From NCBI GenBank assembly GCA_965637545.1, contig OZ281495.1, positions 8,184,001 to 8,248,000 on the forward strand: a DNA stretch of 64,000 bases, given 5' to 3'. Of this stretch, positions 1 through 12,000 are shown one piece after another (within the stretch, counting starts at the first letter, position 1; every line of letters starts with the position of its first letter). Made by a program: the position numbers. The DNA comes from Phallusia mammillata (Eukaryota).

Positions 1-3000
1 TAATTTGCTAATGTCCGAAATATTAAACGTACATCTCATCTTATCTATACCGGCGTGGGAAAATTTTTCTGAACTTAACAAAAACATTGTCAGAAATTTA
101 GAATCAGAATCAGATATTAGATACCGAACGTTGTTGAATTGGTATATTTTACTTACTTACTGCTAATACATACAATTGGTTTATGATTTATTATTTTTCA
201 TGTTTGTGTCATAAGTTTGTTTAGTGAAGATTAAAGAAGTATATTTTTGCCAATTTTTTGCATTGCAGTGTCTCGTGCTAAAATATTTTTTTGACTTTAA
301 ATACACCACAGTTCTTTTGACTTTAAATACACAGCATTTTTAATTTAATACTTGTCTATAAAACTGTTGCAATGCCTAAATACTTCTGTGACTACTGTGA
401 CACCTATCTCACTCACGATTCTCCATCGGTGAGGAAAACACACTGCTCAGGGCGCAAGCATAAGGAAAATGTGCGGACCTACTATCAAACTTGGATGGAA
501 GAACAGGCACAGGAGCTTATTGACAAAACAACACAAGCATTCCAGAAAGGAAAGATTGCCAACAACCCCTTTGGACCTGGAGCAGCTATTCCACCACCCA
601 TGATGGGACCAAATGGCCCGATGGGACCCATGCCAATGGGTGGGCCAATGATGCGAGGCCCTGGACCAATGATGGGTGGGCCTCAGATGATGCCCATGCG
701 GCCTATGGGCCCACCAATGATGGGTGGCCCGGTGATGATGATGGGACCGCGACCAGGCATGCAATGATTGAATGTACCTGAAAAGGATTTTTCTATTGTT
801 GATGTACTGATAAACTTGACTGATTGAGTGCAAGGAAAGCATTATCTCTCTCACTAAGGACTTGAAAATCATATTTGTTGTACTTCTTGTGGGTGTTTTT
901 ATGTCATTCTAAAAAATCACAATTTGTTAGTGAAACAATGATTCAATCACTTGTGTTTACTGTTACGTATGTTTTTATTTTAGGATTTTATATTCAATTA
1001 GGGTTGAGAAACATTGTCTGTGTGATGGAGGTTGTTTCTGGACAGTTTGATGATGCTGACGAAGACAAAGATTTTCACAATCAAGTCACAAACAAAAAAT
1101 TCAAAAGGGTTTCCTTTGATTGTGTACTTAAAGATGGAAACCTTGAAGAAACTGATGAAGTAGATGATTTTCAGGAAGATGACTTGGATATTTTGGAGGA
1201 CCAGTTGTTACAAAATGAGGAAAGTGGACAAAATAACAACTTTCAACCGAACAGCAAAGCGCTGTCCAAGTATGAAAACAAAATAAAACTGGATAAGTAC
1301 AGTCAGTCATACCAAAACAGCATGGATAAAAGAAAGGTCACTGGTGGTCAAAGAGTAAGGGATAAATCAGACCGTGCTACTATTGAACAGGTTCTGGATC
1401 CAAGAACTAGGATTATTTTGTTTAAAATGCTTAGTCGTAATGTGATCAGCGAAATTAACGGAGTTATCAGCACTGGTAAAGAAGCAAATGTTTATCATGC
1501 CACAACTGCCAATGGAGACCATCGTGCTATAAAAATCTACAAAACATCAATTTTGACATTTAAAGATCGAGACAGATACGTAAGTGGAGAGTTCAGATTT
1601 CGTCGTGGATACTGCAAAGGAAATCCAAGGAAGATGGTAGCAACATGGGCGGAAAAGGAAACCAGAAATTTGACTAGGCTTTGTAATGCTGGTGTTAGTT
1701 GCCCAACACCATACCTGCTTAGAAGCCATGTATTAGTGATGGATTTTATTGGTAGTGAGGGTTGGCCTGCTCCTCTACTGAAAGACACAGATTTGTCAGA
1801 GTCCAAATACAGAGAACTGTATCTTGAATGCATTCTACTAATCCGGCAAATCTACAATGAATGTCGCCTTGTCCATGGTGACTTAAGTGAATTTAATCTG
1901 TTGTATCATGAAGGACATTTAGTTGTTATTGATGTTTCCCAATCTGTTGAGCATGACCATCCAAGAGCGCTAGACTTTTTACGAAAAGACTGCACCAATA
2001 TAAATGAATACTTTAGGAAAAAGGGAGTGCCATCTATGAGCTTACGAGAACTGTTCAACTTTGTCACTGATGTTACTATTAACAACTCTAACATTGATGA
2101 ATATCTGCAGAAAGCCATGGAAATAGCAGCTAACCGCCCAAATGATGAGCAAGAAAATACCAATGATGATGCTGTATTCGGAAAAAGCTTTATTCCTCAA
2201 AGACTTGATGAAGTTAAGCACTTTGAAAGGGATGTGAAGAATGCCAAACAAGGAAACACGGAGGTCCTATATCAAACTATAACAGGCATGAATACCACTT
2301 TATCTGGTCCTCGGGAAATGCCGGACATGTTGCAAGAAAGTGAGTCTGATTCAGACTCTGATGATAGTGATTGTACTGATGGTTCAGAAGAGTTTGATAG
2401 AAGGACAAGACCCAAGAATATTGTGATTTCAACCAGGACTATGACCAAAGAAGAAAAAAAAGAGCACAAGAAACAAGTTAAAATTGAAAACAGGGAAAGA
2501 CGGTTGGACAAAACACCAAAACATATTAAAAAGCGCCGAGACAAATTGGCGCATGCTAAAAGATCAAAATGAAATTGTTGTTTGTTGTTGTGCCTACAGT
2601 GCTAACAGCTATTGGTTTGGGTATTGAGCTAAAATGATAAATTAATAATCAAAGTGCCAAGCATCTTCATACACATTTGCAGAAAAATATTTAATGAATT
2701 GTTTGATATTTAAATTTTAAACATCATGTGCAATGAGCACCTAGGTGGAACAGTTAAATAACCATGTTATTTATCATAATAGAAACTAGGTTTAATAACT
2801 TAATAGGCAATAATGGGTGACAGTAAAGAAGGACTAAACTTTCCGGATCTAGCTCCTGTTGATCATGCTAGGCACTGTCCAACATACACCAATAGTAAGT
2901 TTCATTGACAATATTACTCTAGTTTTTCTGGCAATTTTAATGCACCATGAACAGTTTGTCAAAAAATTGTTTACTTATGCCAGTGGGTTCCCAGCCTTTT

Positions 3001-9000: not shown

Positions 9001-12000
9001 TATTTTTTTGCAAATGTTGTTTTTCAGGAACAACAATGTTGCATATGTATGAATGATAACATTTTAGCTAGTTGAGTAATGACACACTGTATGAAAATAT
9101 GGAACGGCGGAAAAACAGCATGGAATGTTTACCGGTCCATCCAAGCACCACTAACAAAAACTCATAACAATTTTTGCACACCAACAACAAACCTTCACAT
9201 CAGCTGCTTGAAACCTGCTCAGAGCCACAGAAAATACTCCACTGCAGAAAATGTGGCACAAGATGCCAAGACACAGAACAGGGAAATAAGTGCTTTGGAG
9301 TTGGAGCATCTTCTTGAGCAACCTTTGAAACATGAGGATTTTTTTGGAGTCAAGGATCTTGTTACGGTGGAGGATCTTTTCAAAGCCCGAGTTCATTATG
9401 GCCACAAACTGGGTTCTCGTAATGAGTAAGTTTATGTTTCGTGAATTGTTAAAAATTTCTTGTATAAAAAGGTTACTCAATGCATATGCATTAGACCAGT
9501 GGTTTTAAGCAAAGGGCAATTTGGCATTGAGGTAACAAATATGTCGACTTTAAATGGAAAACAGTGACAAGGGAAACTTGGTCATATATCTATTGAAACA
9601 AATAATACAAGCAAACTGGTGAAAAAAAAAGAAAATTACACAAAAAAGTTTAAGGAACACCTCATCGAACCAAAGTTTTTGAAATTTTTAATTATTTCCC
9701 CCATAGTCAGTACTACCATAACAGACTGCAACTATTTTTCAATCAGTATAAATGCATATAGATAACCTAATTTAGTAGAATTAATTAGGAAATAAAAAAA
9801 ACTGTAATTTTGACTGATCTATGATGTACACTTTTTGTGTTACCCCTATTCAAAAAAGATATAAACAACTTTTATGACATTTTTGCAGAAATATGAAGGA
9901 GTACCTTTTCGGTTGTCGCTTGGATGTCGACATTTTTGATCTTGACAAAACTATTGTTCATATGCACACAGCACTAAACTTTCTAGCACACATGGCTTTC
10001 AGAGAAGCAATCATACTTTTTATCACTAAAAATCCAATTTATGCACACAAAGTCGAAACTATGGCGAAAGAGTGTGGTCAATATGCACAAACTCGCTTTT
10101 GGCATAATGGCTGTTTTACTAATACAGAATCTGTGGTGAGTATCAGATATACATTAAATCTATATTACCCTACCAATTTACACAATGATCAAAAGCTGCT
10201 AGTTTTTTGTCCACTTACCAACTCATTAAATGATAGTGATTAACTTCAGGAATGGGTCAAAGTAGCAAGTATTATCTTATGCTAAACACTCAGCATGCTT
10301 AAGGGTATTTTAATACAGACTGGGTGACGTCAATATGCATGTTTAAGCACTTACATTCTGCAAAACTTTTTTTAAATTAAATTTCCCCTTGTAAAATTTT
10401 TTTTTTCTTTTAAGCATTTATTTTGTTATTGACAAAAAGTAACATTTTAGATTTTGGTTCAGATTCAAGCCTAATGCACCAAACAATAGTTATGTTAAAA
10501 GGTCCTCTTGGTGCTTTAAACATTTAAAAATATACCAGTCTTGCCACATTGTATAGGTTTTTGGCAACATTCTGTGTTTTACATAATCCTATTAATGGTT
10601 GAAACAACATGGTCTCAAAGTGGTTTAAAAAGATTTTTTCCACTCGCATTGTTTACAGTTTAACACTTTTACATGGAAATTGCGACTACCAGATGTGTGT
10701 GTTTTTCTGTCTTTGGACGATCGCGTTAATTCACAACACGAGGCTATCAATGAAGCTGCCAAAATGGGCATATCAACTGTGGGTGTTGTGGACAGTAACG
10801 TTAATCCAACCCTTATAACATATCCTATTCCTGGCAATGATGATTCGATCCCATCTGCTGAACTGTACTGCAGGTAAAGAGGCTAAACTAAACACAAAGT
10901 AACAGTAGTTTTGGCTGAAAACTGTAGAGCTTGCAGCATAAACCAGTTTGCTTTGTCATGATAATAAGCACATGTTGCTTAAACTTTGGATTTGTCGAAT
11001 TGAAATACCTCAGTTACAGTATACCTCAGTTAATCCGTATCTTCACCTAATTCGGACAAAATTTGAGGTCCGAATGATTTGTAATGTGGTAAGGCTTAAC
11101 TAATCGACATCGGTTGATCCAGAAAAATTTTATAGTCCATACGGGTCTGGATTAACCAAGGTTTACTGTATAACTAATTTTTCGTTACTGGGATACTTTT
11201 TAAAATCGTGGTTAACGAAAGAAAGCTTTGTATCCTGTATGTTTCAACTTAAGTTTTTTAGGTTGTTCAAAACTGCCATTTTGCGAGGAAAAGAAAAGCG
11301 CGCTGAAATGGAAGCTGAATTGTTGAAAGAAAATGTATGACATCATTTGTGTGCGTGTCAAGGAATTTTCAGAAATAAATTTGTTTTTCAAAACAGGTCT
11401 TTTATGACAGTACCGTACCGGCATGTGCATAAAATACAGCAATTCATACAAAAAATGAAAAAATAATTGCAGCTTTTATAAAAATCAACATCTTTTACAT
11501 CAGAGGTCTCCAACCCAAACTGCTTTGGGGGCCAAAAACAAACTTTCAAGTAAGTCGAGGGCCGCATTATCGATATCAAACAAAAATATTGCAAGATTAA
11601 AAAGTAAAATGTTCATGTATGCTATTAGCTACATTAAAAAAAACAATACAGTATTAAATAATAAACAGATATACAGTGTAGTAAAGTGAAAGTTAACTGT
11701 GCTTGATTGCTTTGTGTGGAAACAATGGCCTACAATTACGCAAAAATGTATAAAATATGATGCAACAATCGCAATGGTAATTTTACAATGGGCCAGTTTG
11801 ATGATACTGTGAAAACGTTGTATATACCACTAATAGAGAATGATTGTATTATGTAAACTTGTTAGTCAAAAATAGGTATTTCAAGTAAAACACATATCAT
11901 AACTTCTAAAAGTTACTCCGCGGGCCACATAAAAACCCTTGGAGGGTCGCATGCGGCCCGTGGGCCACATGATTGAGACCCCTGTTTTACATGATACATA

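What the first reader, a model, noticed from the sequence alone, without database searches (positions are those of the whole stretch)
372..11379. Candidate four-gene polycistronic unit: U1-C > RIOK1 > TADA3 > MRPS2
Seen: four unrelated housekeeping genes lie head-to-tail with stop-to-ATG gaps of about 257, 240 and 534 bp. Each downstream ATG has an unpaired pyrimidine-AG acceptor just upstream (AG at 983/1001, 2806, 9027/9067). By eye I found no AATAAA in any of the three gaps, but there is one 33 nt after the last gene. Established: ascidians have SL-trans-spliced operons resolved at such acceptors. Inference: one promoter upstream of 372 drives a precursor linking splicing, 40S maturation, SAGA/ATAC acetylation and mitochondrial translation genes.
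Basis: partly seen in the sequence, partly recalled or inferred. Interest (0 to 1): 0.68.

Follow-up and report, generated by a model that had tools for sequence, protein, structure and literature searches.

The report
Likely sea-squirt operon of four genes
Four unrelated housekeeping genes sit head to tail with very little space between them in a sea-squirt genome, an arrangement that fits the shared-transcript "operons" already known in sea squirts, so it is probably an ordinary new example and remains unproven without RNA data.

Summary
The window is from the ascidian Phallusia mammillata, not human: two of its proteins match named Phallusia records at about 100%. U1-C (372-767) and RIOK1 (1025-2572) are single-exon. 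TADA3 (2813-8544) has nine exons and MRPS2 (9079-11340) has four. The stop-to-ATG gaps are 257, 240 and 534 nt.

No gap holds AATAAA or ATTAAA; AATAAA lies 33 nt after MRPS2. YAG acceptors lie where stated, and only weak donor-like sites lie upstream.

These features match Ciona-type operons resolved by the spliced leader (SL). Those have no intercistronic DNA, 16 of 18 upstream cistrons lack AATAAA, and 60% of first genes are single-exon.

Each sequence signal alone is weak: the chance probability of the AATAAA absence is 0.08-0.3. No transcript data could be consulted.

Linkage is partly conserved. An unnamed relative seems to carry U1-C and RIOK1 on one 26-kb contig. Clavelina RIOK1 and MRPS2 accessions lie two apart. 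In Ciona and Styela, U1-C and RIOK1 lie on different contigs.

Verdict: plausible operon, at least over the first three genes (about 0.55). It would be a new member of a known kind, of low interest.

The parts
286..337 (+). 26-nt tandem duplication upstream of U1-C. Each copy carries a CAG (ending at 311 and 334), so each is a possible acceptor or promoter-proximal element of the first gene.
   Evidence: the repeat finder family D9; AG list. There is no ATG in the 169 nt before the start codon.
372..767 (+). U1-C (U1 snRNP protein C) gene, single exon, 131 aa.
   Evidence: Pfam zf-U1 1.5e-22. 92% identical over residues 1-64 to Ciona intestinalis U1-C.
768..1024 (+). Gap 1, 257 nt: the presumed U1-C 3'UTR, ending at the acceptor-like TAG at 981-983 (alternative at 999-1001). 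No AATAAA or ATTAAA. GATAAA at 809. uATGs at 901, 938 and 969.
1025..2572 (+). RIOK1 (RIO kinase 1) gene, single exon, 515 aa.
   Evidence: Pfam RIO1 5.6e-73. About 100% identical to the Phallusia mammillata record A0A6F9DRC5 over its 416 aa, with one residue different. 64% identical to Ciona RIOK1 over the full length.
2573..2812 (+). Gap 2, 240 nt: the presumed RIOK1 3'UTR, ending at acceptor-like AGs at 2782, 2789 or 2806. No AATAAA or ATTAAA. GATAAA at 2636. Five uATGs, the last at 2764.
2813..8544 (+). TADA3 (transcriptional adapter 3) gene, nine exons: 2813-2894, 3619-3779, 3929-4072, 5128-5319, 5784-5932, 6493-6605, 7147-7278, 7778-7968, 8419-8544. The exon lengths sum to 429 codons.
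   Evidence: Exons read. All introns are GT-AG. Eight of nine exons are hit by Ciona savignyi TADA3 in tblastn. Pfam Ada3 on exon 8.
8545..9078 (+). Gap 3, 534 nt: acceptor-like CAG at 9025-9027 and TAG at 9065-9067. No AATAAA or ATTAAA. Ten uATGs, the last at 9053, so only the site at 9067 gives a uATG-free leader.
9079..11340 (+). MRPS2 (mitochondrial ribosomal protein uS2m) gene, four exons: 9079-9425, 9889-10135, 10659-10873, 11262-11340. The exon lengths sum to 295 codons.
   Evidence: Pfam Ribosomal_S2 on exons 2 and 3. Exons 1-3 are 100% identical to the Phallusia record A0A6F9DLI6 where they overlap. All four exons are hit by Clavelina uS2m.
11374..11379 (+). Canonical AATAAA, 33 nt after the MRPS2 stop codon: the likely 3' end of the whole cluster.

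Best explanation
The locus is a compact same-strand cluster of four real housekeeping genes in the ascidian Phallusia mammillata. It most likely works as a Ciona-type operon resolved by the spliced leader (SL), covering at least U1-C, RIOK1 and TADA3 and possibly MRPS2.

The inferred mechanism is as follows. RNA polymerase II starts upstream of U1-C and reads through the cluster. Each downstream mRNA gets its 5' end by SL trans-splicing at an unpaired AG just before its ATG (about 983, about 2806, about 9067). Each upstream mRNA is polyadenylated at or next to that same AG, without a canonical AAUAAA. The canonical signal at 11374 ends the unit.

Shown here: gene identities, gene order, spacing, and the presence or absence of motifs. 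Inferred by analogy with Ciona: co-transcription, SL addition and 3'-end positions.
For: 1. The species is an ascidian.

2. The four genes are co-oriented with gaps of 257, 240 and 534 nt. A 240-257-nt gap must hold the upstream 3'UTR and the downstream leader, which leaves little room for a promoter plus outron.

3. No gap holds AATAAA or ATTAAA, while AATAAA follows the last gene. In Ciona, 16 of 18 operon upstream cistrons lack AATAAA within 40 nt of the junction (PMC1488885, passages).

4. Ciona operons have no intercistronic DNA, and the upstream gene ends with the AG used as acceptor (PMC1488885; PMC2760879; PMC6836712). The T-rich TAG at 983 and TAG at 9067 fit this.

5. The first two genes are single-exon. 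In Ciona, 38% of operon genes are single-exon against 15% of other genes, and 60% of 5'-most operon genes are single-exon (PMC2760879).

6. The gaps are full of uATGs (5 in 257 nt, 5 in 240 nt, 10 in 534 nt). One of them, at 938, is in frame with RIOK1. All lie upstream of the proposed acceptors. The 169 nt before the U1-C ATG hold none, as expected for the one conventional leader. My estimate of the chance of that is P about 0.04, from the counts.

7. No GTRAG or GTAWGT donor lies in the gaps, except one at 967, which is 16 nt from the AG and too close for an intron.

8. Linkage is partly conserved.
- The unnamed relative's U1-C (P0130) and RIOK1 (P0002) both show '5 contigs, longest 26002'.
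- Clavelina lepadiformis RIOK1 and uS2m are CAK8676864 and CAK8676866, and XP_076801428 and XP_076801432, on the same contigs.
Against: No transcript, SL-junction, TSS or poly(A)-site data were available, so the defining features are untested.

Each sequence signal is weak on its own.
- The absence of poly(A) signals has a chance P of 0.08-0.30.
- YAGs are expected by chance.
- The acceptor at 2806 has a poor pyrimidine tract (10 of 20).

GATAAA, which I recall as a minor poly(A)-signal variant, lies 42 and 64 nt after the U1-C and RIOK1 stops. If it is used, 150-190 nt would be left for a promoter.

In Ciona, non-operon trans-spliced genes have outrons that peak near 100 bp (PMC4691747), so short independent units are possible. 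The 534-nt gap easily fits one.

The MRPS2 3'UTR implied by AATAAA at 11374 is only about 60 nt. That shows 3'UTRs here can be short.

Two real TADA3 donors score only 5 of 9 against the consensus, and gap sites score 6-7 of 9. Weak donors therefore cannot be excluded.

U1-C and RIOK1 lie on contigs of different length in Ciona intestinalis (18,347,025 against 8,454,821) and in Styela clava (25,587,678 against 18,707,400). That junction is therefore not ancient.

I found no paper describing operons or SL use in Phallusia itself.
Confidence: 0.55

Rival explanations
1. These are four independent, tightly packed transcription units. Each gene has its own short promoter in the gap, with or without its own SL trans-splicing of a short outron. 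Each upstream gene ends at a non-canonical poly(A) signal early in the gap.
For: GATAAA lies at 809 and 2636, and AATATA at 8622, shortly after the stops. Ciona outrons of non-operon trans-spliced genes peak near 100 bp, and about half of all Ciona genes are trans-spliced without being in operons (PMC4691747; PMC1488885). The MRPS2 3'UTR is only about 60 nt. U1-C and RIOK1 are unlinked in Ciona and Styela.
Against: There is very little room in the 240-257-nt gaps. Any start site would have to lie downstream of the last uATG (969, 2764, 9053), or the leader would have to be removed. There is no TATAAA in the gaps. Canonical signals are absent exactly where three independent 3' ends would be expected. 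RIOK1 and MRPS2 are still neighbours in Clavelina.
Confidence: 0.25
2. There are two units. U1-C, RIOK1 and TADA3 form one operon. MRPS2 is driven by its own promoter inside the 534-nt gap.
For: Gap 3 is twice as long as the others and has the best-scoring donor-like site, at 8804 with 7 of 9. It also has two candidate acceptors. A promoter, a short outron or a 5'UTR intron would all fit.
Against: There is no AATAAA or ATTAAA in 534 nt, where TADA3 would need its own 3' end. Clavelina keeps RIOK1 and uS2m two accession numbers apart, which suggests the downstream part of the cluster is the conserved part.
Confidence: 0.2
3. The AGs before the ATGs are ordinary acceptors of 5'UTR introns. Their donors and non-coding first exons lie further upstream in the gaps.
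For: Weak donor-like GT sites occur in the gaps: 774, 889 and 967; 2766; 8716 and 8804, scoring 6-7 of 9. Real donors in TADA3 can be equally weak.
Against: A promoter, a first exon and an intron would all have to fit beside the upstream 3'UTR in 240-257 nt. No GTRAG or GTAWGT site lies at a usable distance.
Confidence: 0.05

Closest known systems
Ciona intestinalis/robusta intercistron-less SL-resolved operons (Satou et al. 2006, PMC1488885; Satou et al. 2008, PMC2760879)
   Same: Both are ascidian. Shared features: same-strand neighbours, unrelated housekeeping genes, upstream cistrons without AATAAA, an AG directly before a short leader of the downstream gene, single-exon genes at the 5' end, and a size of four genes. 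In Ciona, 36 of 1,310 operons have four genes.
   Different: The species differs, and no operon description was found for it. Transcript ends are unknown, so the defining transcript-to-transcript distance of under 100 bp or zero is untested. The U1-C/RIOK1 junction is apparently not shared with Ciona.
Oikopleura dioica operons (Ganot et al. 2004, as cited in PMC1488885)
   Same: Both are tunicate. A single SL is used for monocistronic and polycistronic units, and upstream cistrons lack AATAAA.
   Different: Oikopleura has 23-30-nt intercistronic regions and tiny introns. Here the introns are 149-1055 nt, and the intercistronic length is unknown.
Caenorhabditis elegans SL2-type and SL1-type operons (as described in PMC1488885 and PMC7986045)
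   Same: A polycistronic precursor is resolved by trans-splicing. The SL1-type operons also lack intercistronic sequence.
   Different: C. elegans upstream cistrons carry AAUAAA. SL2-type operons have spacers of about 100 nt and a specialised SL. Here there is no AATAAA, and ascidians use one SL.
Ciona operon KHOP.805 (Rpl21 as second gene; Yokomori et al. 2016, PMC4691747)
   Same: [quoted passage not shown] That is the pattern predicted here.
   Different: That case has direct TSS-seq evidence. This one has none.

Membership tests
Ciona-type SL-resolved operon | The member genes are immediate neighbours on the same strand. | tested here: met
   All four ORFs and exon sets are on the + strand. 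No other ORF with a family match lies between them.
Ciona-type SL-resolved operon | The distance from the upstream mRNA 3' end to the downstream 5' end is under 100 bp, typically zero (operational definition in PMC2760879). | not testable with these tools
   This needs mapped transcript ends. Only stop-to-ATG gaps of 257, 240 and 534 nt are known. They are compatible with the feature but not diagnostic.
Ciona-type SL-resolved operon | Downstream genes receive the SL at an unpaired acceptor. | tested here: inconclusive
   YAG sites with no strong upstream donor exist at 983/1001, 2782-2806 and 9027/9067. SL addition itself needs RNA data.
Ciona-type SL-resolved operon | The upstream cistron lacks AATAAA within 40 nt of the junction (16 of 18 in Ciona; typical, not strictly defining). 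| tested here: met
   There is no AATAAA or ATTAAA anywhere in the three gaps. The chance P is 0.08-0.30.
Ciona-type SL-resolved operon | A polycistronic precursor or cDNA spans the junctions. | not testable with these tools
   No transcript collection was available. The named Phallusia protein records are monocistronic.
Ciona-type SL-resolved operon | The host organism performs SL trans-splicing. | tested here: inconclusive
   SL trans-splicing is stated for ascidians in general (PMC5753386). No Phallusia-specific paper was found. An exact copy of the 16-nt Ciona SL lies at 21250-21265, but it is not an SL RNA gene.
C. elegans SL2-type operon | The upstream cistron has AAUAAA, followed by a spacer of about 100 nt. 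| tested here: not met
   There is no AATAAA in any gap.
U1-C (zf-U1), RIO1 kinase, Ada3/TADA3 and uS2m gene families | A family domain scoring above the Pfam gathering threshold, and a named orthologue. | tested here: met
   scores against thresholds: 79.5 against 22, 245 against 22, 52 against 24.5, and 53.3 and 62.1 against 26.1 bits. Named tunicate homologues appear.

The most novel reading that the evidence does not exclude
The cluster is a real four-gene operon caught in the act of growing. Its core is RIOK1, a middle gene (inferred to be TADA3) and MRPS2. That core is old enough to be shared by Phallusia (Phlebobranchia) and Clavelina (Aplousobranchia). The intronless U1-C gene was added at the 5' end only in the Phallusia lineage. 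If so, this would be a concrete example of how ascidian operons acquire the single-exon 5'-most genes that make up 60% of Ciona operon first genes, a feature whose origin Satou et al. 2008 left unexplained.
Probability: 0.2. Interest if true: 0.45.

Novelty: new member of a known kind. Interest (0 to 1): 0.22.

Why it matters
If confirmed, this adds one more operon to a class of more than a thousand already catalogued in Ciona, and it extends the class to Phallusia mammillata. That matters mainly for annotation. Promoter and enhancer work on RIOK1, TADA3 or MRPS2 in this model species should then look upstream of U1-C, and gene predictors should not fuse the four genes. The partial conservation gives a small handle on how operons are assembled and kept during the fast genome rearrangement of tunicates: RIOK1 to MRPS2 is kept in Clavelina, while U1-C is linked only in the Phallusia lineage. 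It does not bear on a long-standing open question.

Tried and rejected
1. Rfam scan of the whole window, tRNA scan, and a relaxed Rfam scan around 21.1-21.45 kb. No RNA gene was found; the single hit was a chance CRISPR-repeat match, E 0.36.

2. Pfam on the small ORFs at the window's first 166 nt, to see whether another gene precedes U1-C. Nothing was significant, so whether the cluster continues upstream stays open.

3. TADA3 synteny. The exon-8 search of the 50%-identity representatives gave 44 hits. I looked up 17 of them (7, 10).
- None was the Clavelina protein.
- None shared a contig length with the RIOK1, U1-C or MRPS2 hits.
- So it is not confirmed that the CDS between the Clavelina RIOK1 and uS2m genes is TADA3.

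4. Clavelina U1-C was not among the 120 U1-C hits listed, of 1184 with E up to 0.001. Its position there is unknown.

5. The MRPS2 exon-2 search with 'longer' lengths found only 2 proteins among 13 candidates. No Ciona or Styela MRPS2 was obtained.

6. P0003, a 737-aa unnamed RIO1 hit with an odd second Pfam domain, was fetched. It has internally repeated segments, looks like a chimeric prediction, and was dropped.

7. Two papers were not held: Zeller 2010 and Matsumoto 2010.

8. I considered a U1-C retrogene with a poly(A) relic. Only an A6 run is seen in gap 1, so there is no support.

9. I looked for a motif shared by the three junctions by eye and found none.
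Full report
**Source of the window.** The 515-aa single-exon ORF at 1025-2572 matches the UniRef record 'Serine/threonine-protein kinase RIO1, Phallusia mammillata' (A0A6F9DRC5) over all 416 residues of that record, with one residue different. Exon 2 of the last gene is 100% identical to '28S ribosomal protein S2, mitochondrial-like, Phallusia mammillata' (A0A6F9DLI6). The next best RIOK1 hits are other tunicates: Clavelina lepadiformis 66%, Ciona intestinalis 64%, Styela clava 54%. 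The window is therefore ascidian DNA, not human. It contains no N. G+C content is 32-40%.

| Gene | ATG | Stop |
|---|---|---|
| U1-C | 372 | 765-767 |
| RIOK1 | 1025 | 2570-2572 |
| TADA3 | 2813 | 8542-8544 |
| MRPS2 | 9079 | 11338-11340 |

- The gaps are 257, 240 and 534 nt.
- Pfam confirms zf-U1 (1.5e-22), RIO1 (5.6e-73), Ada3 (exon 8, 9.4e-14) and Ribosomal_S2 (exons 2 and 3, 2.8e-14 and 5.9e-17).

**Gene models.** U1-C and RIOK1 are single-exon. I read TADA3 as nine exons and MRPS2 as four (coordinates under parts). All eleven introns are GT-AG and 149-1055 nt long.

The joined TADA3 and MRPS2 proteins were never built, translated or searched; only the exon lengths were summed (429 and 295 codons).
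- tblastn of Ciona savignyi TADA3 (H2YJT0) hits 8 of my 9 exons. The low-complexity exon 3 is the miss.
- Clavelina uS2m hits 4 of 4 MRPS2 exons, exon 4 only weakly (E 0.026).
- The start codons agree with the N-termini of the homologues.

**Junction anatomy.**
- Neither AATAAA nor ATTAAA occurs in the 1031 nt of the three gaps. AATAAA starts at 11374, 33 nt after the MRPS2 stop.
- From the window-wide rates (1.26 and 1.09 per kb per strand), the chance of no AATAAA is 0.27 and of neither hexamer is 0.089. A first-order Markov simulation of the gaps gives 0.30 and 0.08. The absence is suggestive, not significant.
- Pyrimidine-AG sites end at 983, 1001, 2782, 2789, 2806, 9027 and 9067. Those at 983 and 9027 have the best T-rich tracts, 14 of 20 pyrimidines. 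YAG is too frequent in this DNA for its mere presence to mean anything.
- The gaps carry 5, 5 and 10 upstream ATGs, the last at 969, 2764 and 9053. The one at 938 is in frame with RIOK1. A translatable mRNA must therefore start, or be trans-spliced, within the last 23-53 nt. For MRPS2 only the AG at 9067 gives a clean leader, not the one at 9027.
- By contrast, the 169 nt before the U1-C ATG hold no ATG. At the gap rate of about 0.019 per nt, that has P about 0.04 (my arithmetic). This fits U1-C being the one gene with a conventional leader.
- No GTRAG or GTAWGT donor lies in the gaps apart from 967, which is 16 nt from the AG. Weaker GT sites scoring 6-7 of 9 exist, and two genuine TADA3 donors score only 5 of 9. 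'Unpaired' is therefore likely but not proven.

**Comparison with what is published.** I read passages found by term search, not whole papers.
- Satou et al. 2006 (PMC1488885):
  - Ciona operons lack intercistronic DNA altogether.
  - The upstream mRNA is polyadenylated at the AG that serves as trans-splice acceptor for the next gene.
  - 16 of 18 upstream cistrons lack AATAAA within 40 nt.
  - Member genes are neither tightly co-ordinated nor usually related in function.
- Satou et al. 2008 (PMC2760879):
  - There are 1,310 candidate operons holding 2,909 genes, 36 of them with four genes.
  - Single-exon genes make up 38% of operon genes, against 15% elsewhere.
  - Single-exon genes make up 60% of 5'-most operon genes.
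- Satou et al. 2019 (PMC6836712) curated operons by checking that upstream genes end in AG.
- The locus matches this picture well: two single-exon genes first, no canonical signal until after the last gene, and gaps the size of a single 3'UTR plus a short leader.
- Yokomori et al. 2016 (PMC4691747) also show that independently transcribed trans-spliced genes have outrons peaking near 100 bp. Short independent units therefore exist.

**Evidence for the rival.**
- GATAAA lies 42 and 64 nt after the U1-C and RIOK1 stops, and AATATA lies 78 nt after the TADA3 stop. That these are minor poly(A)-signal variants is recalled, not tested.
- The MRPS2 3'UTR implied by 11374 is only about 60 nt.
- If the upstream genes ended equally early, 150-190 nt in gaps 1 and 2, and about 400 nt in gap 3, would remain for a promoter.
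- Gap 3 is the weakest link.

**Linkage in other tunicates.** This is indirect evidence from the protein tables, since no eukaryotic contigs could be fetched.
- An unnamed relative: its U1-C (P0130, 97% identical over 56% of the query) and its RIOK1 (P0002, 69% identical) are both listed with sources jgi/lgn/ena, 5 contigs, longest 26,002 bp. The simplest reading is that both genes lie on the same short contigs.
- Clavelina lepadiformis:
  - RIOK1 and uS2m are CAK8676864 and CAK8676866 on a 7,572,327-bp contig.
  - They are also XP_076801428 and XP_076801432 on a 26,535,022-bp contig.
  - Submitter protein ids usually run in order along a record (recalled convention), so one CDS should lie between them.
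  - That this CDS is TADA3 is inferred, not shown. I looked up 17 of the 44 hits from the exon-8 search and did not retrieve it.
- Against conservation: Ciona intestinalis U1-C (XP_078485851) sits on an 18,347,025-bp contig and its RIOK1 on an 8,454,821-bp contig. In Styela clava the figures are 25,587,678 bp for U1-C and 18,707,400 bp for RIOK1.
- The downstream part of the cluster therefore looks older than the U1-C junction.

**What stayed unchecked.**
- Transcript evidence of any kind.
- The sequence upstream of position 1.
- The supplementary operon lists of the Ciona papers, because supplements are closed.
- Matsumoto 2010 and Zeller 2010, which are not held.
- The metagenome and viral contig collections, which are closed.
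- The genome-contig collection holds only bacteria and archaea and was not used.
- Two full-text searches for operons or spliced leaders in Phallusia found no study of the matter. The terms 'Phallusia, operon, trans-splicing' gave 4 papers. The terms 'Phallusia mammillata, spliced leader' gave 3 papers. In ANISEED 2017 and Plessy et al. 2024 I read the passages found by term search. I did not open the remaining hits of those two searches beyond what the listings or other term searches showed.

**Verdict.**
- The operon reading is the best available explanation. I put about 0.55 on an operon covering at least the first three genes, and about 0.35-0.4 on all four from one promoter.
- It rests on analogy and on individually weak signals.
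- If true, it is a new member of a well-known kind, so interest is low.

Noticed in passing
window 21233-21265: An exact copy of the 16-nt Ciona spliced leader lies at 21250-21265 (+). It sits head to head with a 14-of-16 inverted copy at 21233-21248, with a 1-nt loop; by eye the arms extend to 20 nt. None of 100 shuffles gave two matches. It is not followed by GT, and the window's only AGCTTTGG lies about 4.9 kb away at 16313-16320, so it is not an obvious SL RNA gene. It could be a relic of a retro-copied SL-mRNA 5' end or an SL pseudogene.
   Followed up: partly
window 286-337: A 26-nt tandem duplication lies directly upstream of U1-C (85% identical copies). Each copy carries a CAG, ending at 311 and 334, so U1-C may itself have an acceptor. 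The cluster could then continue upstream of the window.
   Followed up: partly
window 10871-10879 and 11262-11340: The public Phallusia MRPS2 protein record (270 aa) ends at ...ELYCR. That is what reading through the exon-3 donor gives (AGG then TAA). It was probably derived from an intron-retaining or alternatively ended cDNA. Exon 4 is supported only by similarity to Clavelina uS2m (E 0.026).
   Followed up: partly
window 1025-1321: The public Phallusia RIOK1 record (416 aa) starts at Met100 of the 515-aa ORF and differs at one residue. Ciona and the unnamed relative have full-length N-termini that match the ATG at 1025, so the record looks 5'-truncated.
   Followed up: partly
window 809 and 2636: GATAAA lies 42 nt after the U1-C stop and 64 nt after the RIOK1 stop. 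These are possible non-canonical poly(A) signals that would favour independent 3' ends.
   Followed up: no
window 4300-5080, 6045-6400, 7517-7592, 11023-11095, about 3047-3373: Repeat elements lie in the introns. A roughly 750-nt palindromic, MITE-like element sits in TADA3 intron 3, with a partial 83% copy in intron 5. A short element is shared by TADA3 intron 7 and MRPS2 intron 3 (87-94%). By eye, a 13-nt terminal inverted repeat pair lies in TADA3 intron 1.
   Followed up: partly
window 12081-25127: ORFs resembling FAD-dependent oxidoreductases (DAO family) lie on both strands. Pfam DAO matches at 22217-22528 (above the curated cutoff) and at 24753-25127 (24.2 bits, below the 27.9 cutoff). 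By eye, the minus-strand ORFs at 12081-12779 look similar, and the last ends in ...SRL. This suggests two or three paralogues, the first convergent with MRPS2.
   Followed up: partly
window 36052-38591 (minus strand): A fucosyltransferase gene (Pfam Glyco_transf_10, 2.7e-47) lies here. By eye, branched-chain aminotransferase-like ORFs lie at 45.6-49.4 kb on the minus strand, and a patatin-like ORF at about 32.9 kb on the plus strand; the long ORF at 29.1-30.3 kb and the other large ORFs tested had no Pfam match. These ORFs are spaced many kb apart, unlike the four-gene cluster.
   Followed up: partly
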